From: Candidatus Latescibacterota bacterium
Lineage (GTDB): Bacteria; Latescibacterota; UBA2968
Reading direction: 5' to 3'
Length of the DNA: 64,000 bases
Assembly: GCA_965198115.1 (NCBI GenBank)
Contig: OZ240241.1
Span: forward strand, 640,001 to 704,000
Shown here: positions 1,570-44,468 of the stretch, piece by piece
Position numbering within the stretch: position 1 is the first letter of the stretch
How the letters are laid out: each line of letters starts with the position of its first letter
The notes under the pieces: generated by a model
What the model saw: only the letters and a program-made list of their open reading frames with translations
What the model was told of the DNA's origin: nothing
Databases searched by the model: none
Made by a program: the position numbers and the translations under genes

Positions 1570-1646
1570 CGGGGCGTGGCTCAGCCCGGTAGAGCGCCTG
1601 CTTCGGGAGCAGGAGGCCGAAGGTTCAAATCCTTTCGCCCCGACCA
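1570..1646 (+). tRNA. tRNA-Pro (anticodon CGG)
   Basis: 77-nt cloverleaf: acceptor CGGGGCG/CGCCCCG, D arm GCTC/GAGC, anticodon stem CCTGC/GCAGG with loop TTCGGGA, T loop TTCAAAT, encoded CCA. Confidence 0.97.
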
Positions 1647-1647
1647 A
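1601..1647 (+). repeat. attL core (47 bp, tRNA 3' half)
   Basis: CTTCGGGAGCAGGAGGCCGAAGGTTCAAATCCTTTCGCCCCGACCAA is identical to 44422-44468. Confidence 0.95.
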
Positions 1648-7996: not shown

Positions 7997-8437
7997 GTGG
8001 TGGCCAGTTTCTTCTGTCGCAACGGCGACAAGCGCAAGTCCAAAAGCGTATTGATTTTCTTCCCAATGGATTTGGCCCACCCTGATCGGGGCCGTCTCAG
8101 TGGGAGCGAAATAACAGGAGAAGGTATCGGAAACCCGATGAGGCCGAAGATATCCCGTGAGCACGGGCGTATGGAGCTGCACGTCCACGGGGGTACGGTG
8201 CGGCTGGTGTTGGAGAACGTCAACCGTGAAGGCGATCACTGGCTGACGTTGGAGCACGGTGTTGGTTCCAGCGCCTCAGTGATCGGTTATCTGCGTCTGA
8301 AGCCTATCGCTGGTGATCGGCATACGTTCGAAGTAGCTGAAGTACGCCCGGCGTGTGGGCCACTGCTTCATTTTCCAGGCGAGTCACCAGCCCCAACCGA
8401 ACGGAGGCCAATGAAGCGCGGTGGAGGGGCTCCGTGA
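7997..8437 (+). CDS. Hypothetical phage protein (start uncertain; possibly frameshifted from GTG 7804)
   Basis: Shares the LENVNREGDxWLTL block with 8812-9054. Confidence 0.45.
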   Translation: MVASFFCRNGDKRKSKSVLIFFPMDLAHPDRGRLSGSEITGEGIGNPMRPKISREHGRMELHVHGGTVRLVLENVNREGDHWLTLEHGVGSSASVIGYLRLKPIAGDRHTFEVAEVRPACGPLLHFPGESPAPTERRPMKRGGGAP

Positions 8438-8815: not shown

Positions 8816-9054
8816 GGAGCCGTCCGGTCAACGCAGATGTGAAGGAGAGGTGGCCTTTGGAGAACGTCAACCGCGAAGGCGATCAGTGGCTGACGCTGAT
8901 CGACGAGCACGCGAGGCCAATCGGTCAGCTGCGATTGCGGCTCATTGATCCGAACTGTCGAGGGTGGTTCGAAGTAGCAGGGCGTTATTGGGGAGCGCCG
9001 GGTTTAACGTCCGTCGGAATCAGAGCGTCGGAGTTAGGGTATGTCGCTCGATAG
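8812..9054 (+). CDS. Hypothetical phage protein
   Basis: ATGA overlap with the upstream gene; paralogous to part of 7997-8437. Confidence 0.5.
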   Translation: MRSRPVNADVKERWPLENVNREGDQWLTLIDEHARPIGQLRLRLIDPNCRGWFEVAGRYWGAPGLTSVGIRASELGYVAR

Positions 9055-15863: not shown

Positions 15864-16258
15864 CCGAGTGTGCGAAGACTGCGGCGATGACTGTAAACGT
15901 CGACAGGATGGCGCACCACCTTCGCTCGCTGATGAAGGCCGAGGTGCTGAAGCTCCTGAAGCTGGGCGTGTGCTCCTGCCGCGCCCTGGAACGGTCGCTG
16001 CGAACTAAGGGCTACGGTCCCCTGCTCGGCGCGAACGGCGCAAGAGCCGTGGACCGCCTGGTGCTGGAGCTGCGCCACGACGACGGGCAGGCGATCTGTG
16101 CGATGGAGGTCGTCACCACCGACATCGTCTACACGCTCGCAGGTATCCACCAGCGGGGGCCGATGCGAGTGAGGAAATCGGTGAAGCCGGAGCAGCTTAA
16201 GAAGACATCCCCCTCTAATTCACTCTCCCCACGAAAGGATGTAGACGAATGCCAGTAG
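15860..16258 (+). CDS. Hypothetical phage protein
   Basis: GTGA overlap, GGAGG RBS. Confidence 0.55.
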   Translation: MTECAKTAAMTVNVDRMAHHLRSLMKAEVLKLLKLGVCSCRALERSLRTKGYGPLLGANGARAVDRLVLELRHDDGQAICAMEVVTTDIVYTLAGIHQRGPMRVRKSVKPEQLKKTSPSNSLSPRKDVDECQ

Positions 16259-17880
16259 AAACAGGGTTGCACGAGCTGCCGACTGAAGACCTCATCCCCA
16301 CTCCGAAGTTGCACGAGCTGCTGACCAAGGACCTCATCCCCACCGAGGACAACAAGCGGAAGGTCGATCCGAACTCGCCCGACATCCTCGAGCTTACACA
16401 GTCGGTCAAGGAGGTGGGTGTGCTGCAGCCGGTTCTGGTGCGCCCTCACCCTCAGAAAGCTGGCAAGTGGGACCTGCGTGCCGGCCATCGTCGACTGGTG
16501 GCGGCCAGGCTCGCCGACTTGGAAACGATCCCTGCGATCGTCGCTGATCTGGATGACCGTCGCGCAGCTGAGATCACGACCGTCGAGAACCTGCAGCGTG
16601 AGGACCTCTCGCCGATCGAGGAGGCCGAGCAGCTGCAGGTCATGATCGATGCGGGATGGGATATGGGGGCTTGCGCGGTGTCGATCGGGAAGGACCTGGC
16701 GTGGGTCCACTCTCGCGCCCGAATCTCCAAGCTGATCCCGGAGTTTAAGGAATTCGAGCTGGATGACGGGAGGCTGCTTTACGAAGCCTGGAGCATCGCC
16801 CACCTCGAGATGATCGCTCGCTATCCGGAAAACACGCAGAAAGAGATCTTTGCGATTTTCGAGAGGCGACATTACGTCCCGGATCTCGGGGACCTGAGGG
16901 GGACGATCGGTCGGCTCACGAACGAGCTGGACAAGGCGTCATTCGATCCGGAGGACCTCGAACTGGTGCCCGAAGCGACGTGTCCTGACTGCCCAAAACG
17001 CCGTGGTCATCATCCTGATCTGTTTCAGGAACTGGGACCCTCCATCCCGCTGAAAGAGGACGTTTGTCTGGACCCCGAATGCTACGCGATGAAGTCCCGG
17101 GTCCACGGGGAGAACGTCCTGAAGAAAGCGCAAGAGAAGGACGACAGGACGGTGGCCGTCGCAAAGATGCCGTATCACGACGAGTATCAGAAACCCGGGT
17201 CCACAAGCTATATGACTGACTACCGCCCAGCCAAGAAAGCCGACAGGGGCGCGATTCCAGCCGTCGTTGTCGGGGGCGAAGGGAAGATCGGAAGAAAGGT
17301 GTGGGTCAAGCCCACGTCCGGCTCGGGATCCTCAAGTTCCACGAAGACCGGGAAGAAGACGCTGGCCGAGAAGAAGACGGCGTTGGAGCAGCGTCGGATG
17401 CGGCACGCCCGGGCGGCGATGTGGGAGAAGATCGAGAAGATGGAGGCGGCTCCCAAAAAACCGCTGACTTGGTATGGTCAGATGATCGCCGCCGGTGCCT
17501 ATGACAGGGGGTTTGAACGCTGGAACGCAGCCGATATGGCCGCAGCCAAAAACAAGGACCTGCTAGAACACCTGTGGACTGGTATTTGGCAAGGGCTTGA
17601 AGGATACCCGCTGTTCGATGTGAACGACCGGGAGATCCCACCGAGGAAGCAGAAGGAACTTGAAGTGCTGGGTAACGAACTCGGGATCAGTTGGAAGGAT
17701 CTGGTGGCTGCCGCTGTGGAGGCCATTCCCGTCCCGAAAGCTTGGGCTGAGGAGGAGGCCGCGAAGGCGAAGGCCTCGAGCAACGGCCAGGCGAAGAAGG
17801 CACGAACCAAGAAGACGCCGAGAAAAGCGAAGAAGACGAAGCGGACCAGGAAGGTGACAAAAAAGGCCGATCGGTCGTGA
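16249..17880 (+). CDS. ParB/RepB/Spo0J family protein
   Basis: GVLQPVLVR...AGHRR (CTP-binding arginine patch)...ENLQREDLSPIEEA, HTH, CxxC...C..P.C cluster, Lys-rich tail. Confidence 0.9.
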   Translation: MPVETGLHELPTEDLIPTPKLHELLTKDLIPTEDNKRKVDPNSPDILELTQSVKEVGVLQPVLVRPHPQKAGKWDLRAGHRRLVAARLADLETIPAIVADLDDRRAAEITTVENLQREDLSPIEEAEQLQVMIDAGWDMGACAVSIGKDLAWVHSRARISKLIPEFKEFELDDGRLLYEAWSIAHLEMIARYPENTQKEIFAIFERRHYVPDLGDLRGTIGRLTNELDKASFDPEDLELVPEATCPDCPKRRGHHPDLFQELGPSIPLKEDVCLDPECYAMKSRVHGENVLKKAQEKDDRTVAVAKMPYHDEYQKPGSTSYMTDYRPAKKADRGAIPAVVVGGEGKIGRKVWVKPTSGSGSSSSTKTGKKTLAEKKTALEQRRMRHARAAMWEKIEKMEAAPKKPLTWYGQMIAAGAYDRGFERWNAADMAAAKNKDLLEHLWTGIWQGLEGYPLFDVNDREIPPRKQKELEVLGNELGISWKDLVAAAVEAIPVPKAWAEEEAAKAKASSNGQAKKARTKKTPRKAKKTKRTRKVTKKADRS

Positions 17881-18053
17881 TGGAATCATCTCCTCCCACA
17901 ACACGCAGCCGCCAACGCGTCATTGTCGGCGGTGCCTTCGACTGGCTACGGGACGCGGAGCCTTGACAGCGTGTGTATGAGGGTCTAAGTTTGCTCTTGG
18001 AGCCGCTCAACACCGAACGGAGGAAAGTCTTGGTTGATTGACAAAGACGGGTT

Positions 18054-18168
18054 CTGACATCGTGAGAGGCAGTACTCCTGCGCAGGGGATCGTTCCCGTA
18101 GGTCGCGGGTAGTAGCGAGCTGTAACGGCCGCATTCGTGAAAAATCACGGGTGCGGCCGTTTTCGTTT
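18054..18168 (+). promoter_or_regulatory. Structured leader/attenuator candidate, copy 1 (84-bp repeat plus intrinsic terminator)
   Basis: 18054-18137 matches 20488-20570 with 5 substitutions and 1 indel; 17-bp hairpin 18124-18161 followed by a T-rich tail. Confidence 0.65.
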
Positions 18169-18275
18169 GAGGAGAGAACGTGGACCTTTGCAGTGTTTTT
18201 CCAAGCTGATGAGCGGTGCGGCTCTGATCCTGGCGGCGCCGGCGCGGCCCTCGAGATGGCCCGGGACACTGTTCT

Positions 18276-18542
18276 ATGGCGGGTGAGAATCTGAATCGAG
18301 AGTTGGGCGCGATCCAGGCGACGCTGAACGCGGTGAAGGAGGACGTCCAGCGCCTGGACGTGAAGTTGGACGAGGTTCTTCATGCGATTCCCAGCCACGA
18401 AGAACAGCTAAAAAGCCACGCGGCGCAGCTCGCGTCATTTCGTGCGTGGCGCAACGGGCTGTTCGGTAAGGCCGTGGCCCTGCTCGGGGCCGCCGGCGCG
18501 CTCGGGGCGGGTATCAGCTGGTTCTTCGCTCGGACGAACTGA
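18276..18542 (+). CDS. Coiled-coil plus C-terminal TM protein (holin/XhlA-like)
   Basis: 88 aa, heptad repeats then a single hydrophobic helix; first late-region gene. Confidence 0.6.
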   Translation: MAGENLNRELGAIQATLNAVKEDVQRLDVKLDEVLHAIPSHEEQLKSHAAQLASFRAWRNGLFGKAVALLGAAGALGAGISWFFARTN

Positions 18543-20314
18543 TGAGAGCCCCCACTACTTTGGAGTTTGCGATGAAATATGACGGGAACAAACACATCCT
18601 GCTGCGGAACCAGGCGCACAAGGCGAAGCTGACACCCGAGGAGTTTTCCGGGTTCGAACGACACCTCAAAGAGAGCGGGGTAACGGTTTTCGATGTAGAG
18701 GTGCCCGATTGGCCGCCCGCGGAAAAGTCGCCTCTGCAACTTGGTGGTGGCAATCCGTTCGAGGGCGAGTCCTGGGAGGGCACTCAGCCGGCGATCTCCA
18801 ACTCGGATTACGCCGGGCGCCGGCTGGTCACGAAGCTCGCCCGTGAAATGGCCGGGCCCCGACTCGCGCCGAAACGACTGGCCTATCAATGGCAGGTTCC
18901 CGAATTCGATCCCGAGCGACACATTCTGATGCGCCAATGGCTGGCCGAAAATGAGGTGTCGATCGTCGATTTCCTTCGTGAATACATTCCCAAAGTCAGA
19001 AAAGAGATTGGACGAGATCCGCTGTTCGAGGTTGCAAACCCACACGCCCAGGCTGAGAGTGATGCAGGAGGGGGCTACAGTCCTACCCGCCGTGCGCTCG
19101 CCATTGACGACCTCCTTGTTCTGAATAAGTTTGCCCAAGTTTCGGAACGGTTCACCTACGACTCGGACCAGCCCGTCACCTGGGTGCGTGCCCTGGACGA
19201 CTCCCGCTGGGAAGCACGACGTCAACATCCTCCGCAGCAAGAGCGGTGGGAGAATCACCGCTCTTGGATTAACCGCACGATCGGTGATGGCGCCTGGACC
19301 GAGGAAGACCGAGGGCCGGAAGGCCATGCCTTCGGCCCGTTCATGGAGCTATGGGACGACGGGGCGATGCAGCTCTGGTGTTACAAGCGGGCACTATCTT
19401 TCCTCGAGGACAACGCGCTGATTATCAACGGTGTTTCCGTCTCTTTCACCCCGGAGAAGATCGGGCACGTGTGTCGCATGGTCGGTCACGTGGAAAATGT
19501 ATCCGCGATACTGGGCATTGCCCCCGAACGCATCCAAGCGGAAAAGAGAATACAACAACCGCTTAGAATCGACTGTCACTTCGAGCAAAAGGGCAACGGA
19601 CCGTTCTGGCATCTGGGAGCGAATCCGAGCTCGCCCTTCCATCGTGCAAGCGAAAGGCCCCCGCTGGTCTTCCGCTTGCACAACGACGGTTCAGGGCAAG
19701 TCCGTGCGTGGGGCGATAAGTCGCTGCTCGACGGTTTTACTCTGAATGGGGTTGGTCTGTATGACTTTGCGCCGTGGCAGTCCGGTTTCCGCATTCAGGT
19801 AGATGCGGCGGACACAGAGATAATTCTTGAACGTGATAGATCCTCGCAGCCTCTTCCTGTCGACCCAAAGCCATCTCCACCCAGCGACGTGACGGATGGT
19901 GCAAGTGCTTATTCTCCTGCATCAGTCATCAATGCGTTGCAAGAGACCTTGGGCCGAAGCGTGTCGCTATTTGGACGTTCTGCGTCTGATAGTGCGGTGG
20001 TCGCCCTCACCCGGCAGGGCCTGAATAAATTCCTGCTGGACGATTTGTCGGATCGTGACCTCTACGTGACCGACGCGGGAGGACGCAACTACGACTGCGA
20101 AAACTTCGCCGAGCGGCTGAGGGTTAATCTCGCAGTGGCGCACGGTGTGAATGGCTGCATGGTCATCTGGGGCGACGGTCATGCTTTCAACGCTTTCGCC
20201 GTTGTCGGTTCGGCGGGTCCTGACATCGTGCTCGTGGAGCCCCAGACCGATGAGATCGTGACCTCGCCGGAAAGGGAGTACAGCATCGAGCGCCGCGCGG
20301 AGGTGCTCCTGTAA
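18542..20314 (+). CDS. 590-aa protein with C-terminal papain/transglutaminase-like domain (MOA agglutinin C-terminal-like)
   Basis: YDCENFA...GHAFNAF...VEPQTD gives a Cys-His-Glu triad after a Pro-rich linker; the N-terminal ~430 aa are not recognised. Confidence 0.7.
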   Translation: MRAPTTLEFAMKYDGNKHILLRNQAHKAKLTPEEFSGFERHLKESGVTVFDVEVPDWPPAEKSPLQLGGGNPFEGESWEGTQPAISNSDYAGRRLVTKLAREMAGPRLAPKRLAYQWQVPEFDPERHILMRQWLAENEVSIVDFLREYIPKVRKEIGRDPLFEVANPHAQAESDAGGGYSPTRRALAIDDLLVLNKFAQVSERFTYDSDQPVTWVRALDDSRWEARRQHPPQQERWENHRSWINRTIGDGAWTEEDRGPEGHAFGPFMELWDDGAMQLWCYKRALSFLEDNALIINGVSVSFTPEKIGHVCRMVGHVENVSAILGIAPERIQAEKRIQQPLRIDCHFEQKGNGPFWHLGANPSSPFHRASERPPLVFRLHNDGSGQVRAWGDKSLLDGFTLNGVGLYDFAPWQSGFRIQVDAADTEIILERDRSSQPLPVDPKPSPPSDVTDGASAYSPASVINALQETLGRSVSLFGRSASDSAVVALTRQGLNKFLLDDLSDRDLYVTDAGGRNYDCENFAERLRVNLAVAHGVNGCMVIWGDGHAFNAFAVVGSAGPDIVLVEPQTDEIVTSPEREYSIERRAEVLL

Positions 20315-20320
20315 TCGCAC

Positions 20321-20491
20321 ATGAGCAAACTGGATCTGGACGCGATTGAAGAGATGTCGCGGTTGCCGTCGGGCGTCGCGTCGGCGCTGCGAAAGAAGTT
20401 GGTCTACCTCCAGGGCCAGGAGGCTGGCATCCACGTCGTGCAATCACGGATTCTTCGAATTCTCACTGAGAAGGAAGTGGAGCAGTCCTGA
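20321..20491 (+). CDS. 56-aa hypothetical protein (not in the ORF track)
   Basis: MSKLDLDAIEEMSRLPSGVASALRKKLVYLQGQEAGIHVVQSRILRILTEKEVEQS; fills the gap, and its stop overlaps repeat copy 2. Confidence 0.5.
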   Translation: MSKLDLDAIEEMSRLPSGVASALRKKLVYLQGQEAGIHVVQSRILRILTEKEVEQS

Positions 20492-20610
20492 CATTGTGAG
20501 AGTAGTACTCCTGCGCAGGGGATAGTTCCCGTAGGCCGCGGGCAGTAGCGAGCTGTAACGGCCGCATTCGATGGATTGGAGTTCCCATCGAGTGTCGGCC
20601 TTTTTTTGTT
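20488..20610 (+). promoter_or_regulatory. Structured leader/attenuator candidate, copy 2 (83-bp repeat plus intrinsic terminator)
   Basis: Repeat of 18054-18137; hairpin GGCCGCATTCGATGG/CCATCGAGTGTCGGCC followed by T7. Confidence 0.65.
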
Positions 20611-20665
20611 TCTGTGGCGCACACGTAACCCTGGTCGAATCGAACCCACCCACGAGGCAAATTCA

Positions 20666-20929
20666 TTGGCTGATTTATTCGAGAATTATTCAGCAGGCCT
20701 AACCTCGCCGCTGTCGCGCTCGGAGGTCGCCGACGTGTCGGCGGAGGACCACACGTTCACAAACGTCACTCGGGCCGTTCTCCTAAGCGAGGGTGTTGTC
20801 GTCATGCGGCTGGTGGGCGACGAGGCCGACTTGACGTTGACCGTGACCGGCGGAGCCTTCCTGCCGCTCAGGGTCGCGGTCGTGCGCAACACGGGGACCA
20901 CCGCGACGTCCGTGGTGGGGTTGTGGTGA
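20666..20929 (+). CDS. Head spike base protein, RcGTA Rcc01079-like
   Basis: TTG start after GAGG; ADLF...GLTSP...TRA...LPLRV..V..TGTTAT.VVGLW pattern. Confidence 0.75.
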   Translation: MADLFENYSAGLTSPLSRSEVADVSAEDHTFTNVTRAVLLSEGVVVMRLVGDEADLTLTVTGGAFLPLRVAVVRNTGTTATSVVGLW

Positions 20930-21378
20930 TGGCCGAAGTTGGCGTGGGGACGTCGATCACGATGACCTACGGCCGCATCGTCGCCGGGTCGAAGGGGCGA
21001 GTCCCGTTAACGGGAGAAGCTGTCCGCGCGACGATCACGGCGGGGGCCGACGAAATCTATCGGGAAGGGATTCACGGTTCTGCCACCGGCGACCTGGAGA
21101 TCACGAGCAGCCTGGTCATCAATCGCGTCCGGCTGCGGCCGGACCGCCAATTATTCACCGTGAACGTACGGGGTGACGACGCATTCCCTAGCTGGGTTTT
21201 TGGCGAAGGTGCCGGCAAATCCTTCTATCTCCTGATCGAGGGCACCGCGCATGAGTTTGAAGTCCAGGACTCGCGCTCCGGGGGCGGGTTTATAACCTGG
21301 GTTGCCGTCGACATCCCGGCACCCGATGCGGGCACCACGGTCACGCTGATCGTGGCGGATAGCGGAGCAATAGTGTAA
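20929..21378 (+). CDS. Putative head fibre/spike partner
   Basis: Coupled to the spike base gene; short VGVG N-terminus then beta-rich sequence. Positional inference. Confidence 0.5.
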   Translation: MAEVGVGTSITMTYGRIVAGSKGRVPLTGEAVRATITAGADEIYREGIHGSATGDLEITSSLVINRVRLRPDRQLFTVNVRGDDAFPSWVFGEGAGKSFYLLIEGTAHEFEVQDSRSGGGFITWVAVDIPAPDAGTTVTLIVADSGAIV

Positions 21379-21389
21379 GGGGTCAGCGG

Positions 21390-21794
21390 ATGAGTTTTGA
21401 ATACGAACAGCAGTACGCCTACAGGCTTAGCCAGCGCAAAGGCTTCCTGCTAGACCGTCAACTGCAGATGTATGGCGGAGAAGTCAACCATCCCCTCTTC
21501 AGCCCCCGGTCCACCGGGGTGATCGTGGAGCCGGGGTATGCGTGGGATGGCCCGAGCGGCCCCACGATCGACACGACGAACGCCATCCGGGCGTCACTGC
21601 TTCACGACGTGCTCTACCAAGCCATGCGTGAGAAGTTGATTCCAAGGAAACGCAACCGCCGCATCGCCGACGCAGCGTTTCGAAAGATTCTCAAAGAGGA
21701 CGGCATGCACTCCTTCAGGCGGTGGTTGTGGTGGATCACCGTCCGTCTGTTCGGAGGATACGCAGTCAAACCACAAACGAGGGATAGACGATGA
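21390..21794 (+). CDS. DUF1353 family protein
   Basis: GYAWDGPS...ASLLHDVLYQ...AD..F...VRLFG. Confidence 0.8.
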   Translation: MSFEYEQQYAYRLSQRKGFLLDRQLQMYGGEVNHPLFSPRSTGVIVEPGYAWDGPSGPTIDTTNAIRASLLHDVLYQAMREKLIPRKRNRRIADAAFRKILKEDGMHSFRRWLWWITVRLFGGYAVKPQTRDRR

Positions 21795-22198
21795 GTGTCT
21801 TGCTCGAAGATCTCAAGCGCGACGAGGGGTTTTCTCTGACGCCATATGAGGACAGCGAGGGCCTGCTGACGATCGGCTACGGCACGCTGATCGAGGAGAT
21901 TTCGAAAGAAGAGGCCCAGTGGCTCCTCGAGCACCGCCTGGAGAAGATCGTCGCCGAGCTCGTCGCTGCCGTGCCGTTCGTCGTCGATCTTCCCGCATCT
22001 GTCCAGCGTGGCCTGCACAACATGGCTTATAACCTGGGCGTACCTCGTCTCCTGGGTTTTAAAAACATGTGGGCGGCGTTGGAGGCTGGTGATTACGCGC
22101 GCGTGGCGACCGAGGCACTGGATTCGAAGTGGGCTGGACAGGTGGGCCCCCGTTCCGAGCGCATCGCGGCCTTATTCAGGAGCGCACAGGATGGCTAA
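21791..22198 (+). CDS. Endolysin, GH24 (T4 lysozyme-like)
   Basis: DEG...PYEDSEG..TIGYG catalytic E-D-T motif, NLG, SKWA.QVG.R. Confidence 0.92.
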   Translation: MSVLLEDLKRDEGFSLTPYEDSEGLLTIGYGTLIEEISKEEAQWLLEHRLEKIVAELVAAVPFVVDLPASVQRGLHNMAYNLGVPRLLGFKNMWAALEAGDYARVATEALDSKWAGQVGPRSERIAALFRSAQDG

Positions 22199-22739
22199 CC
22201 CATTCTCATCCCTGGGCAAGGCGGTCGGCAAGATCGCCCCCGGCATCGCGTCGATGTTGGGATCCTCGGCCGGTGGCCCCATCGGCAGCGCACTGGCTTC
22301 CGACGCCGTCAAGGGCGTGGCCAAAGCCCTGGGCGTAAAGACCGAAGCGCCTGAGGCCTTGCTGCAAGCCCTGGAGAAGGCCACGCCCAGACAGCTGGAG
22401 GCGATACGCGCGGCCGACCACGACTTTCAGGTGCAGATGCGCAAACTCGGCCTCGAAGAGGAGGCCATACACCACAAAGACCGTTTGTCGGCGCGGGGGC
22501 GGGAAACCCTCGTCGGCGGCCGCACCACGCCCGCCCTTGCCGCCGTGACCGTGGCCGGATTCGTCGGCACCGTGGCCGTGGTCCTGTGGCTCGAAGGACG
22601 CGTCGACTCATCGCTCGGCGACTCCGTCCTCGCCGGTGCCGTCGTCGGCTACATCTCCGCCAAAGCCGACCAGGTCATCTCCTACTACTTCGGCTCCTCC
22701 TCGACCAGCGACGAGATGATCAAGAATGGGAAAAAGTAG
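22191..22739 (+). CDS. Holin-like membrane protein
   Basis: IAPGIA..LG..GGP.G, DR.SAR.RE, two TM helices, YYFGSS; follows the endolysin. Confidence 0.7.
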   Translation: MANPFSSLGKAVGKIAPGIASMLGSSAGGPIGSALASDAVKGVAKALGVKTEAPEALLQALEKATPRQLEAIRAADHDFQVQMRKLGLEEEAIHHKDRLSARGRETLVGGRTTPALAAVTVAGFVGTVAVVLWLEGRVDSSLGDSVLAGAVVGYISAKADQVISYYFGSSSTSDEMIKNGKK

Positions 22740-22741
22740 AC

Positions 22742-23077
22742 GTGAGCGCCACGACCTTCGAACGCGATTCGTCGGCCGCCCGCGGCTACGCCCGCAGATG
22801 GAGGAAGGCGCGGGCGGCGTTTTTGCGAAAAAACCCGCTGTGTGTGATGTGCCGGGCCGAGGGCAAAACCCGAGAGGCTCACGTGGTGGACCACATCATC
22901 CCGCACAAGGGGGACAGGAAGCTGTTCTGGGATCGATCGAACTGGCAGGGCCTGTGCACGGCGCATCACTCGGGAGCCAAGCAGGCTCTCGAGCGGCGCG
23001 GCTACGGCAGGCAGGTAGGAGCAGACGGCTGGCCCCTGGACCCGAACCATCCGGCCAACCGTGGAGTTAGTTCATAA
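22742..23077 (+). CDS. Packaging-associated HNH endonuclease (HK97 gp74-like)
   Basis: RGY..RWRKAR..FL..NPLCVMC...VVDHIIPHKGD..LFWD.SNWQGLC..HH. Confidence 0.9.
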   Translation: MSATTFERDSSAARGYARRWRKARAAFLRKNPLCVMCRAEGKTREAHVVDHIIPHKGDRKLFWDRSNWQGLCTAHHSGAKQALERRGYGRQVGADGWPLDPNHPANRGVSS

Positions 23078-23086
23078 AGGGGGGAC

Positions 23087-23422
23087 TTACTCATAGCTGA
23101 GCCCTCGCGCCAGGAACGTTGTGGCGAGCTGGTTCAGGCTCACGCCTTCGGCCGCCGCGCGCTTGGCAAGTTGCATGTGCAGACTTTTGGGTATCCGCTG
23201 GACAAACTGTCCGCTGTAGGACTTGGGCTTGGGCAGCTCATCACGGTCTTCCCTTTCGGCAGCCACCCAGGCATCGAAGGCGTCGCGCGCTTCGGAGATC
23301 GCCTCCTCGAAGGTGGTGCCGTCGGCCATGCATCCAGGCAGATCGGGAACGAGGACCAGGAAGCCGCCGCCGTCCTCTTCGTGAAGGGGAGTAACCGTGA
23401 TGGGATAGTCTTCAAATCTCAT
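23087..23422 (-). CDS. hicB: HicB antitoxin
   Basis: PDLPGCMADG.T.EEA...YSGQFVQRIPKSLH..L...A..EGVSLNQ. Confidence 0.93.
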   Translation of the reverse strand: MRFEDYPITVTPLHEEDGGGFLVLVPDLPGCMADGTTFEEAISEARDAFDAWVAAEREDRDELPKPKSYSGQFVQRIPKSLHMQLAKRAAAEGVSLNQLATTFLARGLSYE

Positions 23423-23657
23423 GACTTAAGCCCTCTTCGATGAGTGTTACCAGATGCTTGATGTAGACCGGCTTGATGGGTTTGTGCATCGGGATTGTCA
23501 GATGATGGCCCCGTGCGTTCGTAAGGACGGCGTGACTGGTTCCGCGTTGTCGGAGCGTCAGGTTGTGGGCTTTCGCCACCGTCTTGATGTTGTCGGGCGT
23601 CCAATCGCCTTTGGGGTTGGACTTCATTCGGGTAAGCAGTTTAGCGGCGTTTCCCAT
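23412..23657 (-). CDS. hicA: HicA toxin (mRNA interferase)
   Basis: GTSH...LTIP.HKPIKPVYIK; overlaps hicB. Confidence 0.9.
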   Translation of the reverse strand: MGNAAKLLTRMKSNPKGDWTPDNIKTVAKAHNLTLRQRGTSHAVLTNARGHHLTIPMHKPIKPVYIKHLVTLIEEGLSHEI

Positions 23658-23663
23658 ACCTTA

Positions 23664-23692
23664 ATGATACTGTATATAGTATCTCATGTCGA
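23664..23692 (-). promoter_or_regulatory. hicAB promoter with overlapping inverted-repeat operator
   Basis: Minus strand TCGACA, 17 bp, TATCAT; inverted repeat GATACT-N6-AGTATC at 23666-23683. Confidence 0.6.
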
Positions 23693-23769
23693 GCAGTATC
23701 TCCCAAGGGGTAAGGGGGGTGTAAAACCCGCGAGCGTTCGGATGTAGACCGGTAGGGTCGTTTTTTTCT

Positions 23770-24222
23770 TTGGCGGCCAAAAATAAAAATCGGGCGGTGA
23801 GCGTGACGAAAAAGGGGTCAAAAGGGGTCAAGAAACGGCCGAGCCCGGGGAGGGGGCGTAGACCGAAGCCTCTGGCTCTGCACGTGGTGGAGGGGACGTT
23901 TCGTCGCCATCGGCACGGTGATCTCGATGCGGTTGTCGTGGCCGACCTCGAGATCGATCCTCCGAAGCGGCTTCCGCGTAAGCGGTTGCGGGAGCTGTGG
24001 GACCGGTATATCCGCACGGCATTTTGGCTGACGGACCACGACGGCCCGTCGGCGTATATGTGGGTGGTGCTGCAGGAGGAGTTCGAAAAGAATCCGAATA
24101 TGATAGCCTCGCGTATCGCGCAGCTCCGAGGGTTGGGAGCGGAGCTGGGGTTGAGCTATCGGAACAAGGCCCAAACCAGACCTGAAGGCCCGGAGTCGGA
24201 CAATGCCCGTTTCTTCGCGTAA
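23770..24222 (+). CDS. terS: Terminase small subunit
   Basis: GRRPKP..LHVVEGTFR..RH and ELGLS..R motifs of P27-like TerS; directly before TerL. Confidence 0.8.
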   Translation: MAAKNKNRAVSVTKKGSKGVKKRPSPGRGRRPKPLALHVVEGTFRRHRHGDLDAVVVADLEIDPPKRLPRKRLRELWDRYIRTAFWLTDHDGPSAYMWVVLQEEFEKNPNMIASRIAQLRGLGAELGLSYRNKAQTRPEGPESDNARFFA

Positions 24223-25993
24223 GGGTCCGGCGTGTCCGGACCCGGTCACGTCGTATGCGCGGGCGGTGTTGCGGAAGCGCAAGCCGATTGTCGCCGGTCC
24301 TTACGTGCGTGGGGCGTGCCGACGCCACCTGCGCGATCTGAAAGCGAAAGATCGGGGGCTGCGGTGGGACTGCTCCTCGGCTCTGCGCGCCATCGCGTTT
24401 TTTCGGGACGTGCTGCGCCTGAACTCCGGGGCGTATGAGGGTAAGCCGTTCGTCCTTCTGCCGTGGCAGTGCTTCTTGGTGGGGTCTTTGTTCGGATGGA
24501 AGCAGGAGGATGGGTATCGCCGGTTCCGCCGCGCCTATATCGAGGGGGGGAAGGGCTGTGGGAAGACGCCTCTTTGCGCGGGCATCGGGCTGTATATGCT
24601 GTGCGCGGACGAGGAGCCGCGCGCGGAGGTGTATGTGGCGGCTTACAACCAGGACCAGGCCAAGGTGATGTTCCGGGACGCGGTGGCGATGGTGGAGCAG
24701 TCGCCGGACCTGTCGTCTCGTCTGCATCTCTCCGGCGGCCAGGAGAAGGACAACATCGCATATGTGAAGACGGGGTCGTTCTTCCGTCCGATCTCGTCGG
24801 AACGCCAGGGGCGGGGCAAGTCGGGCCCGAAGCCGCACTGCGCGTTGCTGGACGAGGTCCACGAGCATCCGACGAACGCGACGGTGGAGTTTTTGGCCGC
24901 CGGCGTGAAGGAGCGGAAGCAGCCGCTGACGGTAATGACCACGAATAGCGGGTCGGATCACGAGGGGGTGTGCTGGGAATATCACGAGTATGGACGCAAG
25001 GTTGCCGACGGCACGCTCGAGGACGACGGGTTTTTCTCGTATGTGTGTGCCCTGGACGAGGGCGAGGACCCGTTTGCGGACGAGGCGTGCTGGGAGAAGG
25101 TGAACCCGAGTCTTCCATCGATCCCGGGTTACGATTACCTGCGCCAGCAGGTGCGTCCGGCGCGGTCGATACTGTCTCAGGCGGCCGTGGTGCGGCGTCT
25201 GAACTTTTGCCAGTGGCGTTCTGATGGCACGGAAGCGTGGGTTTTGGAGGATCTGTGGCGTTCGTGCCAGAGCGACGCTCTGGATTTGGGGGATTATGAG
25301 GGCGCCCCCTGCGTCGGCGGCCTGGACCTGTCGCTGTCGAGTGCCCTGACGGCGCTCGTGCTGGCGTTCGAGGCCGGAGCGACCGGAGCGTCCGGTGCGG
25401 GCGGCGAGCGTGCTTGGGACGTGTTTTCGTGGTTTTGGATGCCGGGAGATCGGCTTTTCGAGTTCGAACAAAATGATGGTGTAGTCGGCCAGTATCAGGC
25501 GTGGAAAGAGGCCGGACATCTGTTTGCCCCTGCCGGCAGGGTGATCGACTACGGTCACGCGGCCGACCTGATCGTCAAGCTGTGTGCCCGTTTCGACGTG
25601 CAAGCCATCGCTTACGACCGCGCCAAGATCGAGCTCTTGCGGGCCGAACTCGACAAGCTGAGCGCCGACGTGCCGCTGATCGAGCACGGTCAGGGTTTCT
25701 ACAAGGCCAAAGATACGGGCCTGTGGATGCCGGGGTCGATCGAGGCGACGGAGGCGGCGATGCTGGAAGGGCGTCTTCGTGTAAGTGCGAATCCGGTGTT
25801 GAGCTTGTGCGTGGCCAACACGCAATGCAAGCCTTCGTCGATCAACCCTTCTGATCGACACTTCGACAAGCGGAAGTCGTCGGGCCGCATCGACGGGTCC
25901 GTGGCGCTGGTGCAGGCAATCGGGGCGGCGTGCTACGCCGACCTCAAGCCGAAAGCGAGTATCTACAACGAGCGCGGGCTGCTGGTGATCTAA
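24203..25993 (+). CDS. terL: Terminase large subunit
   Basis: LLPWQ, Walker A GKGCGKT, LLDEVHEH, GLDLS, YDR, RIDG.VA. Confidence 0.96.
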   Translation: MPVSSRKGPACPDPVTSYARAVLRKRKPIVAGPYVRGACRRHLRDLKAKDRGLRWDCSSALRAIAFFRDVLRLNSGAYEGKPFVLLPWQCFLVGSLFGWKQEDGYRRFRRAYIEGGKGCGKTPLCAGIGLYMLCADEEPRAEVYVAAYNQDQAKVMFRDAVAMVEQSPDLSSRLHLSGGQEKDNIAYVKTGSFFRPISSERQGRGKSGPKPHCALLDEVHEHPTNATVEFLAAGVKERKQPLTVMTTNSGSDHEGVCWEYHEYGRKVADGTLEDDGFFSYVCALDEGEDPFADEACWEKVNPSLPSIPGYDYLRQQVRPARSILSQAAVVRRLNFCQWRSDGTEAWVLEDLWRSCQSDALDLGDYEGAPCVGGLDLSLSSALTALVLAFEAGATGASGAGGERAWDVFSWFWMPGDRLFEFEQNDGVVGQYQAWKEAGHLFAPAGRVIDYGHAADLIVKLCARFDVQAIAYDRAKIELLRAELDKLSADVPLIEHGQGFYKAKDTGLWMPGSIEATEAAMLEGRLRVSANPVLSLCVANTQCKPSSINPSDRHFDKRKSSGRIDGSVALVQAIGAACYADLKPKASIYNERGLLVI

Positions 25994-37174: not shown

Positions 37175-40100
37175 ATGGCACTGGGGTTTGTGAAAAAGCT
37201 GGGACTGGCCCTGGGCGTGGGCGCCGTCACCGTCTTCACGGGGGGACTAGGGGGCTTGGCGCTCAGTCAGGCCCTCAAAGCCGGAGCGATCAACGCGGGG
37301 CTGACCCTCCTGGACCGCCTGGTGCGGCGCGGTCCCAAGCCTCCCGAGCCTACGCAGCGCGGCGTCAACGCCGTGGCTGCCGCGCCGGCGCGCTACGCCC
37401 TCGGCACCTCACGCACAGAAGGCGTCCTCACCTATCTTCGAGAAAACGGCGCCGACCTCCACCTGGTCTACGCCATCTCCGAGGGCGCGTGCGCAGGCCT
37501 CGCCGGAGAGAAAAAGCCCGACGGGACGACCGAAGACGTCCACATCTACGTCGACGGCAACCAGATACGAATCAAGCCTGTCGTCGGCTCTCCCAACAAG
37601 TACGAGCCCTTCCACGCCACCAACCGGGGCACGATAGAGCTGTGGGCCTACACCGCAGCTGACGGCACGGAGGGCGCCGACCTCTTCTCCGCGATTCCCG
37701 GTCCCAACCCTCCCTCCGCGCCTTGGCTCGATGGCCTCTCGTGGGTCTACGTCAAGCTCACCCAGCCCAAGCGACGCCACTACACCGCCGTCCCGAGGAT
37801 CGAGTTCGAGTGGCGCGGGATGATCGTCAAGGCACCCCGCCACCGCCCGCTGCTTGAACGACAAATCACCGGCACGGCCTGGTCGAACGCGGAGGCGAAC
37901 CTTGCGTCACCCTCGGCCACGCCTGAGTCCCGGGCTTTCGGGATCAAGGTCCGCCTCCACAACGACGCCGACCCATCGTTGTTCGACGAAACGCGCATCT
38001 GGGACGGCGACGCCTGGGTTCGGCTCGACTCCGACACCGGCGACCTCCCCGAAGGAGAATGGACGTCCTCGGCGGCAGCTGCGCGCTACTTTTTCCTGAC
38101 CAGGCTGCGCGGCGTACCCCACACCGCCATAGACCGAAACTCAGTGGTCGAAGCCGACCGCATCTGTTCAGAACGCAGCTACGCCGTCAACGGCGTCATC
38201 GCCGACGACGAGGACGTGAACGAAATCGAAGACTTGTTCGACTTCGCCTGGCAGGGACAGGTCATAGACGCAGGAGGTGTCCTCCTCTTCCGCCCGGGAG
38301 CGGACAGGGACCCCGTTCTCACCCTCGACGTGGACGACGAAGCCGTGTCCATAGACGCCGTAAAACCCGCGCCTTCCCTCTCCGAGCGCGTCAACGAGCT
38401 CACCCTAACCCTAGACCAGTCCGACGCCCATCAGTTCAGGCCGATGGCCATGCCCCCCGTGGTCGACAGGGAGACGCAAGGCCGGGACGGACGGCGCCTG
38501 GCCAAAGATCTTGGAAACATCAGGTTCGTGACACACGCCCCCACAGCAAACCGTCTGATGGCCATCGCCCTGAAAAGGGCGCGCGCAAACACCCGCTTCG
38601 CCTACACCCTGCCTCCAGGAGATGACTACCGCTGGCTCACCGTCAGGCCCACGGACCGCATGCGCATCAACGACAGCGAAAACGGACTGTCCGCCTTCCT
38701 TGCCGAGGTCCTCACCCTCACCGTCAACGAAGACTGGTCCGTCAGCATCGAACTACAAGCCGCACCCGACGGTATCTACGACGACGACGCGACGTTCCCG
38801 CCCCTCATACCCCTGGATATCGACATCGCTGACCCTACCGACGTCGCGATCCCCACAGGCGTCACGGCCGCGGCTTTAATCGAGAAGATCGCCGACGGAA
38901 CATTCATTGCAGGATTCACCATCGGGTGGGGCGACACGACCACCACGAGCACCGACCTCCGCTATCGTAAGGTCGGAGACACACAGTGGATTTTTCTAAA
39001 CAGCCCCGCGTCCCCCATTCGCGTGGCACCCCTGCCCGCAGGCGACTATGAATTCCAACTGCGCCACGTTTCCAGGCAAAACATCCCCTCGATCTGGACC
39101 GACGCCGCCACAGTCACCGTAGCAGGAGACCAGATACCGCCGGCGAACCCCCTGAACTTCGCCGTCTCCGCGATCGCAGGGGGATACCAGGCCACCTGGA
39201 CAGCATCCCCCGACACCGACTACCACCATACCGAAGTCTACGACACCCGCACGCGAACGGCGTTCGCCGACGCCACACTACGCGCCACCATCGACGGCTC
39301 GTCCTACTCCCGCCACGGCCTCACCACTGACACCCTTGACGTCTGGATCAGACACATCGACACCTGGGGAAACGCCTCGGGAGAAGCCTCGGCCACCGTC
39401 ACACCCAGCGCGCAAGGACAGGGAAGGCCCGGCCTCGACGGAACGCCCGGCCTCTCCGTCGCCGAGCTCATAATATTCCGCAAAGCCACGCTCCAGGAAG
39501 GTATAGCCTCGCTCACAGGAACAACGCCGGTGGCAACACCCACGGCCACGAACTACGATTTCGCCACGGGCACTTTTACCGGCCTCACGACCGAGTGGTC
39601 GCTACAGTGGCCCGCGAATTACGACCAGCGACTGGGGTTTGTCTTTGCCTCTACAGTCACCGCCACGGCACCGGCCGGAGGAGCCGACACGTCATTGACT
39701 TTTGGGGGACCGCGCCTCGTCAGCAGTGCCCTGAATATCGATGTCATCTACACACGGGCGGCCACGCCACCCTCAAAACCGGCCAACCAGCCCGCCGACA
39801 GGAACCCGGCAGACTACCCCGCACCCGACACCGGATGGTCCACGAACCCGCCCACGGGCGACGACCCCCTCTACTCGTGTGTCCGTATTATCCGGGGGAC
39901 TCAGTGGGTCCATGGCACACCTATTCCGGTGGGCGAGGACGGCAGGTCGGCGCAGGAGTATTTCAGAGCCACCCTCCTGAACAGCCCACCGTCCACGCCG
40001 ACAGGATGGAATGCTCAAGATGGTGCACCAACGGACTGGACCACCGCGGCGGGGATACCTAGGATTCGCCCGGCGATCCCAATGCCTGGGAATCCGCTGG

Positions 40101-41131
40101 TGCTTTGGCGGATTTCGAGAACGTGGAACGAAGGCACAGATCAATGGAATGACTTCACCCCACCGGTGCTTTTTGACGGCGTCCCAGGCGCTGATGGGGC
40201 TCCGGGCGCAGACTCCACAGTTCCAGGCCCTATCGGCCCACAGGGCGCAGACTCCACAGTTCCAGGCCCTATGGGCAGGTCGGCGCAGGAGTATTTCCGA
40301 ATCACTCGCCTGAACGACCCACCGCCAAAGCCGACAGGACGGAATGCTCAAGATGGTTCACCACCGGACTGGACCACCGCGGCGGGGCTACCTCTCATTC
40401 GCCCGGTCCCGATTCCCGGGAATCCGCTGGTGCTTTGGCGGATTTCGAGAACGTGGAACGAAGGCACAGATCAATGGAATGACTTCACCCCACCGGTGCT
40501 TTTTGACGGCGTCCCAGGCGCTGATGGTGAGGGTGTGCCCGGAGGCGGCACGCTGGGGCAGGTGTTGACGAAGATCGCCGCGGGCGACTTCCAGACCGGC
40601 TGGCAGGATACCTCGGGCGTCAGCACTCAGGGTCCCACAGGTGCTCAGGGTGCTCAGGGTCCTCAAGGCGGGCAGGGAGCTGATTCTACCGTCCCCGGAC
40701 CTCAGGGCCCCCGAGGTGCTCGGGGGGCGAAAGGAGATCAGGGTAATCCGGGAGCTCGGGGTGCGAAAGGAGATCAGGGTAATCCGGGAGCTCGGGGTGG
40801 AAAAGGAGATCAGGGTAATCCAGGTGCTCAGGGAGCGAAAGGAGATCAGGGTAATCCGGGAGCTCAGGGGGCAAAAGGAGATCAGGGTAATCCGGGAGCT
40901 CAGGGGGCAAAAGGAGATCAGGGTAATCCGGGAGCTCGGGGCACTCAAGGTCAGCGGGGCTTTCGGGGCATAACGGGTGCTGCGGGTGCTGCGGGTGCTC
41001 GGGGTGCGCAGGGTGCTCAAGGGGCTCAGGGACCCAGCCATAGCCATGGTACCATTCTTAGCCGTCTCTCCAGTCTCGAAAACGAAGTGGACGATCACGA
41101 CGAGCGTATTAATGACTTGGAATCTGCCTAA
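37175..41131 (+). CDS. Tail tip/host-specificity protein with FN3-like domains, duplicated ~85-aa module, collagen helix and C-terminal coiled coil
   Basis: 1318 aa; tail-hub-like N-terminus, FN3-like repeats (YEFQLRHVS, VWIRHIDTWGN.S), Gly-X-Y runs, terminal heptads LSRLSSLENEVDDHDERINDLE. Confidence 0.9.
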   Translation: MALGFVKKLGLALGVGAVTVFTGGLGGLALSQALKAGAINAGLTLLDRLVRRGPKPPEPTQRGVNAVAAAPARYALGTSRTEGVLTYLRENGADLHLVYAISEGACAGLAGEKKPDGTTEDVHIYVDGNQIRIKPVVGSPNKYEPFHATNRGTIELWAYTAADGTEGADLFSAIPGPNPPSAPWLDGLSWVYVKLTQPKRRHYTAVPRIEFEWRGMIVKAPRHRPLLERQITGTAWSNAEANLASPSATPESRAFGIKVRLHNDADPSLFDETRIWDGDAWVRLDSDTGDLPEGEWTSSAAAARYFFLTRLRGVPHTAIDRNSVVEADRICSERSYAVNGVIADDEDVNEIEDLFDFAWQGQVIDAGGVLLFRPGADRDPVLTLDVDDEAVSIDAVKPAPSLSERVNELTLTLDQSDAHQFRPMAMPPVVDRETQGRDGRRLAKDLGNIRFVTHAPTANRLMAIALKRARANTRFAYTLPPGDDYRWLTVRPTDRMRINDSENGLSAFLAEVLTLTVNEDWSVSIELQAAPDGIYDDDATFPPLIPLDIDIADPTDVAIPTGVTAAALIEKIADGTFIAGFTIGWGDTTTTSTDLRYRKVGDTQWIFLNSPASPIRVAPLPAGDYEFQLRHVSRQNIPSIWTDAATVTVAGDQIPPANPLNFAVSAIAGGYQATWTASPDTDYHHTEVYDTRTRTAFADATLRATIDGSSYSRHGLTTDTLDVWIRHIDTWGNASGEASATVTPSAQGQGRPGLDGTPGLSVAELIIFRKATLQEGIASLTGTTPVATPTATNYDFATGTFTGLTTEWSLQWPANYDQRLGFVFASTVTATAPAGGADTSLTFGGPRLVSSALNIDVIYTRAATPPSKPANQPADRNPADYPAPDTGWSTNPPTGDDPLYSCVRIIRGTQWVHGTPIPVGEDGRSAQEYFRATLLNSPPSTPTGWNAQDGAPTDWTTAAGIPRIRPAIPMPGNPLVLWRISRTWNEGTDQWNDFTPPVLFDGVPGADGAPGADSTVPGPIGPQGADSTVPGPMGRSAQEYFRITRLNDPPPKPTGRNAQDGSPPDWTTAAGLPLIRPVPIPGNPLVLWRISRTWNEGTDQWNDFTPPVLFDGVPGADGEGVPGGGTLGQVLTKIAAGDFQTGWQDTSGVSTQGPTGAQGAQGPQGGQGADSTVPGPQGPRGARGAKGDQGNPGARGAKGDQGNPGARGGKGDQGNPGAQGAKGDQGNPGAQGAKGDQGNPGAQGAKGDQGNPGARGTQGQRGFRGITGAAGAAGARGAQGAQGAQGPSHSHGTILSRLSSLENEVDDHDERINDLESA
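39941..40527 (+). repeat. Intragenic direct repeat, 39941-40197 and 40274-40527
   Basis: Both encode GRSAQEYFR...FDGVPGADG; the last 110 bp are identical. Confidence 0.95.
40715..40930 (+). repeat. Six 36-bp tandem repeats encoding GA[RQ]G[AG]KGDQGNP
   Basis: Invariant core AAAGGAGATCAGGGTAATCC every 36 bp, within 38 uninterrupted Gly-X-Y triplets (40697-41038). Confidence 0.95.
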
Positions 41132-44421: not shown

Positions 44422-44468
44422 CTTCGGGAGCAGGAGGCCGAAGGTTCAAATCCTTTCGCCCCGACCAA
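44422..44468 (+). repeat. attR core (47 bp)
   Basis: Identical to 1601-1647. Confidence 0.95.

What the first reader, a model, noticed from the sequence alone, without database searches (positions are those of the whole stretch)
18054..20610. Duplicated ~84-nt structured element fused to compensated terminators at the entry to the late genes
Seen: 18054-18137 and 20488-20570 are non-coding copies differing by 5 substitutions and 1 indel. Each contains the palindrome CCTGCGCAGG (foldable as CUCCU-GCGC-AGGGG), a CCCGU-loop-GCGGG hairpin, and two GYAGU segments that can each pair with GCUGU, which suggests alternative folds. The shared 3' end GGCCGCATTCG is the 5' arm of an intrinsic terminator in both copies. 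The loops and 3' arms differ in sequence (TCACGGGTGCGGCCGTT vs CCATCGAGTGTCGGCC-T7), yet pairing is kept. Each copy lies ~55-110 nt upstream of a late gene block. I recognise no Q, N or other late activator in the prophage. Known: lambdoid late genes are gated by promoter-proximal terminators (Q/qut), and HK022 uses RNA-only put antiterminators. Inference: an undescribed attenuator, riboswitch-like RNA or protein-dependent antitermination site controlling late expression.
Basis: partly seen in the sequence, partly recalled or inferred. Interest (0 to 1): 0.72.

Follow-up and report, generated by a model that had tools for sequence, protein, structure and literature searches.

The report
Phage late-gene RNA gate, small protein
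Two otherwise unrelated prophages put the same unit, a tiny unstudied gene followed by a folded RNA whose last hairpin is predicted to compete with a transcription stop signal, in front of their lysis and virion genes, and it likely acts as a previously undescribed on-switch for those genes.

Summary
The duplication is real (5 substitutions, 1 gap; only two copies in the genome; no Rfam family). Both copies are predicted to form a long stem followed at once by a small hairpin that uses the 5' arm of a 15-17-bp intrinsic terminator. New here: (1) a sigma-70-type promoter lies 63 nt before copy 1; (2) a close relative in two other studies keeps element-56-aa gene-element but lacks the 2.15-kb cassette between; (3) a distant prophage with different terminase families has promoter, a 35%-identical 54-aa homologue, a diverged element and a long terminator directly before terS-terL. 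The conserved unit is therefore small gene + RNA + terminator. Best reading (0.4): local, BglG/RAT-like antitermination by a new three-helix protein. Weak points: only three distinct lineages, the distant RNA is not significant by generic alignment, the competing hairpin is unremarkable in energy, no expression data, and in the distant phage the gene lies before the gate, so a further control is needed.

The parts
17963..17991 (+). Predicted sigma-70-type late promoter: perfect -35 hexamer, 17-nt spacer, -10 with T1, A2, T6; start near 17998
   Evidence: one of 4 such sites in the 43-kb prophage on both strands; 0.68 expected per 43 kb from the genome-wide rate for the perfect -35 form; missed by the stricter scan
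18054..18137 (+). Element copy 1 (E1)
18073..18114 (+). E1 long stem P2 (core helix 18077-18082 with 18104-18109) with apical 4-bp hairpin 18086-18097, predicted
   Evidence: (pair probabilities 0.85-0.98)
18115..18132 (+). E1 hairpin P3, predicted; its 3' strand is the terminator's 5' arm (candidate antiterminator)
   Evidence: -7.0 to -8.3 kcal/mol; 112 of 2000 spacer shuffles as good
18124..18169 (+). Intrinsic terminator 1: 17-bp stem, imperfect T tail
18276..20314 (+). Inserted cassette: 88-aa and 590-aa ORFs; absent in the close relative
   Evidence: joint 18163->20316 in X5 and X9; no Pfam family above cut-off
20321..20491 (+). 56-aa conserved gene, candidate partner protein; its stop codon lies in the first bases of E2
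   Evidence: homologues P0143 (62%, E 2e-10) and G052 54-aa protein (E 2e-7; 35% identity); three-helix model, pLDDT 86, pTM 0.71
20488..20570 (+). Element copy 2 (E2); P2 20506-20547, P3 20548-20565, predicted
20560..20607 (+). Intrinsic terminator 2: 15-bp stem with one bulge, seven T
20666..25993 (+). Start of the late block: phrog_12296, 151-aa ORF, DUF1353, lysozyme, phrog_1544, HNH, (hicAB on the minus strand), terS, terL

Best explanation
The repeat is the RNA half of a conserved phage module (promoter, 54-56-aa gene, about 60-nt folded RNA, long intrinsic terminator) at the early/late junction, which likely gates the lysis, packaging and virion genes by local antitermination, with the small protein as the predicted RNA-binding factor. 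Steps: (1) shown in sequence: the module and its order in three phage lineages; (2) predicted: transcription starts near 17998; (3) predicted: the nascent RNA folds into long stem P2 and hairpin P3, which holds the terminator's 5' arm (pairing probability 0.87-1.0 at five of six arm bases in all three elements) before the 3' arm is made; (4) predicted: unaided, the terminator displaces P3 (9-18 kcal/mol in its favour) and transcription stops; (5) inferred: the small protein binds P2/P3, holds P3 and lets polymerase read on. In this phage the gene lies behind gate 1, so leak through the imperfect first terminator would start a positive feedback loop that then opens gate 2.
For: Promoter 63 nt before E1, one of 4 such sites in the prophage. 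Runs X5, X6, X9, X10 (2 studies, at most 3 samples): element + terminator joined by 7 nt to the 56-aa gene region, then a second element with a third, fully Watson-Crick terminator arm and T tail, then the phrog_12296 gene; the gene has no room for its own promoter there. G052 (same order, other family; found by protein profile, 1 convincing of 167 other genomes): perfect -35, 17 nt, -10 at C1:7013046, 54-aa homologue, element, 15-bp terminator (-28.9) with six T, then terS and terL; its 60-kb region shares only one protein (DnaC-like, 31%) with the window prophage and uses other terminase families (phrog_38/1889 against phrog_9/83). Core helix kept in 3 of 3 aligned elements with one C-G to U-G change; both its strands occur in order in 159 of 10000 shuffles of the G052 interval, 9 of 10000 with the 17-nt register to the terminator arm. 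One position covaries across P3 5' strand, shared arm and terminator 3' arm. 0 of 10 ordinary host terminators picked up weakly by model R2 carry the core. Long terminator stems (14 bp and more) resist conAn processive antitermination (PMC10325885, passages), which favours a local switch.
Against: No RNA data. Only three distinct lineages, two of them over 90% identical, so covariation rests on one comparison. G052's element is not significant against E1/E2 by generic alignment (110-371 of 2000 shuffles; 130 or more of 2000 in all 16 scoring schemes), model R1 missed it, and the 0-of-5000 two-block test was defined after seeing it. P3 is not exceptional: 112, 207 and 745 of 2000 spacer shuffles fold as well, and its 5' strand sits 2 nt out of register between E2 and the G052 element. 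The window protein is not basic (pI 6.6; homologues 9.2, 9.7) and matches no known RNA-binding fold. In G052 the gene precedes the gate behind a strong promoter, so if that promoter is on in the lysogen the protein cannot be sufficient; a second control is needed and was not found. A near-complete copy within one phage may be recent duplication or gene conversion rather than selection.
Confidence: 0.4

Rival explanations
1. The RNA is a processive antiterminator that modifies RNA polymerase, like HK022 put (RNA only) or conAn (RNA plus a protein encoded just upstream), and the small protein is a helper.
For: put RNAs are about 70 nt, two stem-loops, two copies per genome (PMC9378689, passages); conAn1 gene followed by conAn2 RNA opens a long operon and works in cis (PMC8191782, passages), the same order as in G052.
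Against: Every copy seen (5 of 5: two window, two relative, one G052) is fused into a terminator's 5' arm, so it would be destroyed by the hairpin it should suppress; the stems are 15-17 bp, a length that resisted conAn; a processive factor would not need a second copy 2.4 kb on.
Confidence: 0.15
2. The small ORF acts in cis: a ribosome ending at its stop codon, 9-15 nt before P2, decides the fold (translation-coupled attenuation).
For: The stop codon abuts the element in E2 and in G052; the G052 start codon is about 12 nt after the -10 box.
Against: E1 has no conserved ORF between promoter and element; the protein is conserved over its whole length with a confident three-helix model, unlike a leader peptide.
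Confidence: 0.12
3. The small protein is a negative factor or a lysogen-expressed gene: promoter-gene-terminator make a short transcript, the RNA is its 3' structure or partner, and the protein keeps the late genes off or does something else.
For: In G052 promoter, gene and terminator form a self-contained unit of about 300 nt, the layout of a moron (recalled).
Against: In the close relative the gene can be reached only through terminator 1, and E1 exists without the gene in front of it.
Confidence: 0.13
4. The terminators are ordinary tR'-like stops overcome by an unrecognised Q-like or other factor loaded at the promoter; the 84-nt identity is only the scar of a recent duplication.
For: Promoter then terminator about 170 nt later resembles lambda pR'-tR' (recalled); the element alone folds no better than shuffles; several early ORFs have no family.
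Against: The core helix and 17-nt register persist in a phage that shares almost nothing else; both copies are kept in a relative; host terminators lack the core.
Confidence: 0.12
5. The RNA is a riboswitch or binds a host protein, tying late transcription to a host signal.
For: Aptamer-sized folded region whose last helix overlaps a terminator is the usual ON-switch layout (established knowledge); loop bases after the core 5' strand are kept in 3 of 3.
Against: No Rfam match; not found in host genes of 131 other genomes of the class except the G052 prophage; always beside the small gene.
Confidence: 0.08

Closest known systems
BglG/SacY/LicT antiterminators with RAT RNA (PMC12591593, passages)
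   Same: A stem-loop that partly overlaps an intrinsic terminator and is predicted to need a protein to hold it; regulator encoded in the operon it controls
   Different: No CAT or PRD domain (0 of 3 members); 54-56-aa three-helix protein; extra long stem P2; phage late genes; no Rfam match
conAn system of plasmid pLS20 (PMC8191782, PMC10325885; passages)
   Same: Protein gene followed by an RNA element at the start of a long operon of a mobile element
   Different: ConAn1 is 172 aa, conAn2 lies in a 315-nt region and acts processively on distant terminators; here the RNA is about 60 nt and fused to a long terminator
HK022 putL/putR (PMC9378689, passages)
   Same: About 70 nt, two adjacent stem-loops, two similar copies in one phage
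   Different: put serves early operons, needs no phage protein and is not part of a terminator; sequence likeness to put was not tested directly
Lambda pR'-tR' with Q (recalled)
   Same: Strong promoter then terminator at the early/late junction, ahead of lysis and head genes
   Different: No Q family found; the conserved part lies at the terminator, and copy 2 has no promoter next to it
ANTAR dual-hexaloop antitermination (PMC3369931, PMC8934654; search listing and start of abstracts only)
   Same: Small helical RNA-binding domain holding hairpins that exclude a terminator
   Different: No ANTAR Pfam hit; no pair of six-base loops in the predicted fold
DUF2292/YezD-like late gates in earlier notes of this scan (e1-6057870, e1-8480511; AI notes, unchecked)
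   Same: Small gene just upstream of an RNA that competes with a terminator before phage late genes, sometimes duplicated
   Different: No DUF2292 hit for 3 of 3 proteins at E up to 10; no look-alike by sequence; their RNA could not be compared

Membership tests
Any Rfam 15 family | Covariance-model score at or above the gathering threshold | tested here: not met
   Window: only tRNA. 17800-20800 at E<=10: 3 weak hits, none on the element. Three elements alone: best dinG 13.9 bits against 46.9
BglG/SacY-RAT | Antiterminator hairpin overlapping the terminator | tested here: inconclusive
   Predicted in 3 of 3 elements, but its energy is not beyond shuffles
BglG/SacY-RAT | Protein with CAT RNA-binding domain | tested here: not met
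   0 of 3 small proteins; none among 22 window proteins
ANTAR | ANTAR domain protein | tested here: not met
ANTAR | Dual hexaloop RNA motif | tested here: not met
   Predicted loops are 4 and 3 nt in E1/E2
HK022 put | Two stem-loops of about 70 nt downstream of a promoter | tested here: met
   Predicted P2 + P3 span 60 nt; shape only
HK022 put | Sequence likeness to putL/putR | tested here: inconclusive
   blastn of E2 against 50,697 phage records gave 2 hits at E about 10, neither HK022-like by name; no direct alignment made
HK022 put | Binds the beta' zinc-binding domain and suppresses distant terminators | not testable with these tools
   needs experiment
conAn | Protein gene directly followed by the RNA element at the operon start | tested here: met
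   G052 and E2; E1 lacks the gene in front
conAn | ConAn1 homologue (172 aa) | not tested
   No ConAn1 sequence was fetched; the protein here is a third of that length
Lambda Q / pR' | Q-family gene upstream of the late promoter | tested here: not met
   No antiterminator family in 32 window and 17 G052 proteins scanned against PHROGs; several have no family at all
DUF2292/YezD late gate (earlier scan notes) | DUF2292 protein | tested here: not met
   0 of 3 members at E<=10
Known protein fold family | Structural match above background | tested here: inconclusive
   Foldseek: none at E<=0.001; VIA best Z 5.8, rmsd 2.0, 55 aligned, generic helical

The most novel reading that the evidence does not exclude
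A new class of phage late-gene control: a 55-residue three-helix protein of an unnamed family binds a riboswitch-like RNA fused into each late terminator and opens it, and because its gene lies behind the first gate it forms an RNA-level positive-feedback switch that replaces Q; the module moves as a unit between unrelated phages.
Probability: 0.35. Interest if true: 0.8.

Novelty: new variant of a known kind. Interest (0 to 1): 0.62.

Why it matters
Late-gene control is understood in few phages (Q antitermination, promoter activators, phage sigma factors; recalled), and many prophages of uncultured hosts have no recognisable late regulator. A two-part gate of about 300 bases with a new protein family and a new RNA would fill that gap for these phages, gives a small, directly testable system (one 56-aa protein, one 110-nt RNA), and could serve as an orthogonal transcription switch. 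Searches listed no paper on such a phage module, but the library lacks most subscription journals.

Tried and rejected
Homologue hunts that found nothing real: exact patterns in viral contigs (1 hit; 26 hits; 0; 8 hits) and metagenome contigs (6 hits), all judged chance on inspection (L143 looked structured but lies antisense inside a helicase gene); blastn in 60 relatives and 131 class genomes (only short hits at E 0.005-0.008, not inspected further); R1 in 131 genomes and 84 loci; R2 in 131 genomes (G052 plus 10 weak hits, all plain hairpins or terminators without the core); protein-based scans of viral contigs with the 87-aa and 56-aa proteins (none); the 3-member profile in 50 of the 80 ParB-bearing virus records (0 of 50) and in 167 phylum genomes (G052 only; 5 weak hits at E 0.03-0.06, one inspected, not pursued); tblastn in 50,697 phages (nothing below E 3). 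The 87-aa downstream gene is not tied to the element: its relative L122 lies in a different gene order and R1/R2 found no element there or in L126/L127. ParB-like protein as partner: no element in 81 loci; palindrome not over-represented. Host CRISPR-repeat or tRNA mimic: no third copy in the genome, no Rfam hit. Promoter inside the repeat: only a weak extended -10 look-alike, not kept in the scans. ESM Atlas: best scores 0.78-0.79, unnamed clusters, leads only. No RNA holder listed among sequencing runs. The single-sequence fold (two helices, pTM 0.50) was superseded by the alignment fold. The 25-45-kb scan for terminators was not run (exceeded the size limit); promoters there were covered by script. 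The host's phylum was not established (the term in one search was a guess). The DNA around P0143 could not be read (528-nt contig), so whether it has the element is open.

Full report
Setting. The finding lies in a 43-kb prophage bounded by a 47-bp direct repeat (1601-1647, 44422-44468) in a tRNA-Pro gene. The order is replication genes, J-domain gene, 132-aa ORF, ParB-like gene, element 1, 88-aa and 590-aa ORFs, 56-aa ORF, element 2, then phrog_12296, DUF1353, lysozyme, HNH, terS and terL. The host is an unnamed 8.43-Mb genome.

Observation. The two copies differ by 5 substitutions and 1 gap and are the only copies in the genome. Each runs into a long terminator hairpin (17 bp, -30.1 kcal/mol; 15 bp with a bulge, -24.8). 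The 3' arms are homologous (10 of 12 positions), so 'compensated terminators' is true only in the sense that pairing survives a few changes and a replaced apical stem. With its terminator each copy folds better than shuffles (z -6.2, -2.8), without it not (z -1.0, -0.7). Rfam has no match. The palindrome is of ordinary frequency.

Fold. The three differences between E1 and E2 within P2 fall in unpaired positions under either model.

Promoter. A perfect -35 hexamer, 17 nt and a -10 with T1, A2, T6 lie at 17963-17991. A script found 4 such sites in the prophage: 7511 (before the rightward early genes), 17963, 19104 (inside the 590-aa ORF) and 23692 on the minus strand (before hicAB). The tool's stricter scan did not list it. 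E2 has none next to it.

Close relative. Of 10 listed runs, 2 hold the whole stretch (probably the source) and none is RNA. Contigs of X5 and X9 join 18163 to 20316 with 7 other letters and go on through the 56-aa gene into a second element, and another contig leads from an element to 20702. A narrower lay (X5, X6, X9, X10; 2 studies, at most 3 samples) shows copy 1 with two substitutions and a one-base gap, copy 2 identical to window E1 over 18069-18128, and a third, fully complementary terminator arm with a T tail. The 88-aa/590-aa cassette is therefore an insertion or loss; element-gene-element is the kept unit.

The small gene. It has a 62%-identical homologue among 1.84 billion representatives (P0143; 3 further hits are repeat proteins and judged chance). 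A two-member profile found one convincing match among 167 other genomes of the phylum: a 54-aa ORF in G052 (E 2e-7; a second hit at E 0.005 lies in a 501-aa frame). The three proteins keep 17 invariant columns and fold as three helices (pLDDT 86, pTM 0.71), with no family in Pfam or PHROGs and no clear structural match.

Distant prophage. In G052 a perfect -35, 17 nt, -10 promoter precedes the 54-aa gene by about 12 nt; after its stop come an interval of about 70 nt, a 15-bp terminator with six T, and terS-terL-portal. The 60-kb region shares one protein with the window prophage. The interval holds a 10-of-12 match to P2's 5' strand and an exact 3' strand of the core helix, 17 nt before the terminator arm as in E1/E2. 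RNAalifold keeps the 7-pair core in 3 of 3 with one C-G to U-G change. Before the 3' arm exists, all three elements are predicted to fold P2 + P3 and pair the arm, and one position covaries across P3, arm and terminator. Against this: generic alignment scores are not significant, R1 missed the element, and P3 is no better than 112, 207 and 745 of 2000 shuffles. The test defined from the E1/E2 fold gives 159 of 10000 (9 of 10000 with register). Homology of the RNA thus rests on position, the core helix and the register: likely, not proven. Ten weak R2 hits in host genomes lack the core.

Mechanism. Shown: the module's parts and order. Predicted: promoter use, the folds, termination by default (9-18 kcal/mol in favour of the terminator). 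Inferred: the small protein holds P3 and opens each gate; in this phage leak through the imperfect first tail would feed back positively. Long stems resisted conAn processive antitermination (PMC10325885, passages), and every copy seen is fused into a terminator, which fits local better than processive action. The main gap is G052, where the gene precedes the gate, so another control must keep late genes off in the lysogen; the protein could instead be negative or act in cis.

Comparison. It works like BglG/RAT (PMC12591593, passages) in layout and like conAn (PMC8191782, passages) in gene-then-RNA order, and resembles put in size (PMC9378689, passages), but fails the protein or sequence tests of each family that could be tested. 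Lambda Q/pR' is recalled, not read. No supplements were read. Earlier notes of this scan describe the same logic with DUF2292-like proteins (unchecked AI notes); the protein here is not DUF2292, so this would be a second, independent protein-RNA pair. I met those notes after finding the G052 module.

Verdict. Real, non-coding, uncatalogued element; part of a conserved small-gene/RNA/terminator unit at the late entry of at least three phage lineages; function inferred. New variant of a known kind; interest 0.62.

Noticed in passing
window 1601-1647 and 44422-44468: 47-bp att repeat; prophage integrated in the 3' end of tRNA-Pro(CGG). A 17-bp perfect-looking hairpin follows at 1651-1689.
   Followed up: partly
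window 17880-17966: 28-aa ORF whose start overlaps the ParB-like stop and whose stop codon lies inside the -35 hexamer of the predicted late promoter.
   Followed up: no
window 18542-20314: 590-aa protein with no Pfam or PHROG family, absent from the close relative but with diverged pieces in run X4; its C-terminal part has Cys/His/Glu spacing that recalls a papain-like peptidase (recalled, untested).
   Followed up: no
window 19104-19131: Second promoter-like site with the same -10 hexamer as the late promoter, inside the 590-aa ORF; could feed the 56-aa gene or be chance.
   Followed up: no
window 18012-18023: A 12-nt stretch between promoter and E1 is kept in the relative although the bases around it differ (loose end).
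   Followed up: no
window 23087-23692 (minus): hicAB toxin-antitoxin pair with its own promoter, antisense within the late operon between HNH and terS.
   Followed up: no
window 16249-17880: ParB-like protein of a long phage subfamily with four conserved cysteines (C245, C248, C273, C278).
   Followed up: partly
window 40622-41049: 9-nt period repeats (collagen-like) in the 1318-aa ORF 37175-41131.
   Followed up: no
window 46093/61664 and 51413/59404: Two near-identical repeats of at least 300 nt outside the prophage, perhaps insertion sequences.
   Followed up: no
window 8210-8251 and 8857-8898: 42-nt repeat inside two neighbouring early ORFs without family, probably paralogues.
   Followed up: no
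L053, L056, L059, L085, L087, L091, L094: Virus loci near ParB-like genes carry three similar 90-200-nt segments each, apparently the ends of tandem paralogous genes.
   Followed up: no
G000:C1:2870558-2872531: Array of 20 tRNA genes on one strand in the host genome.
   Followed up: no
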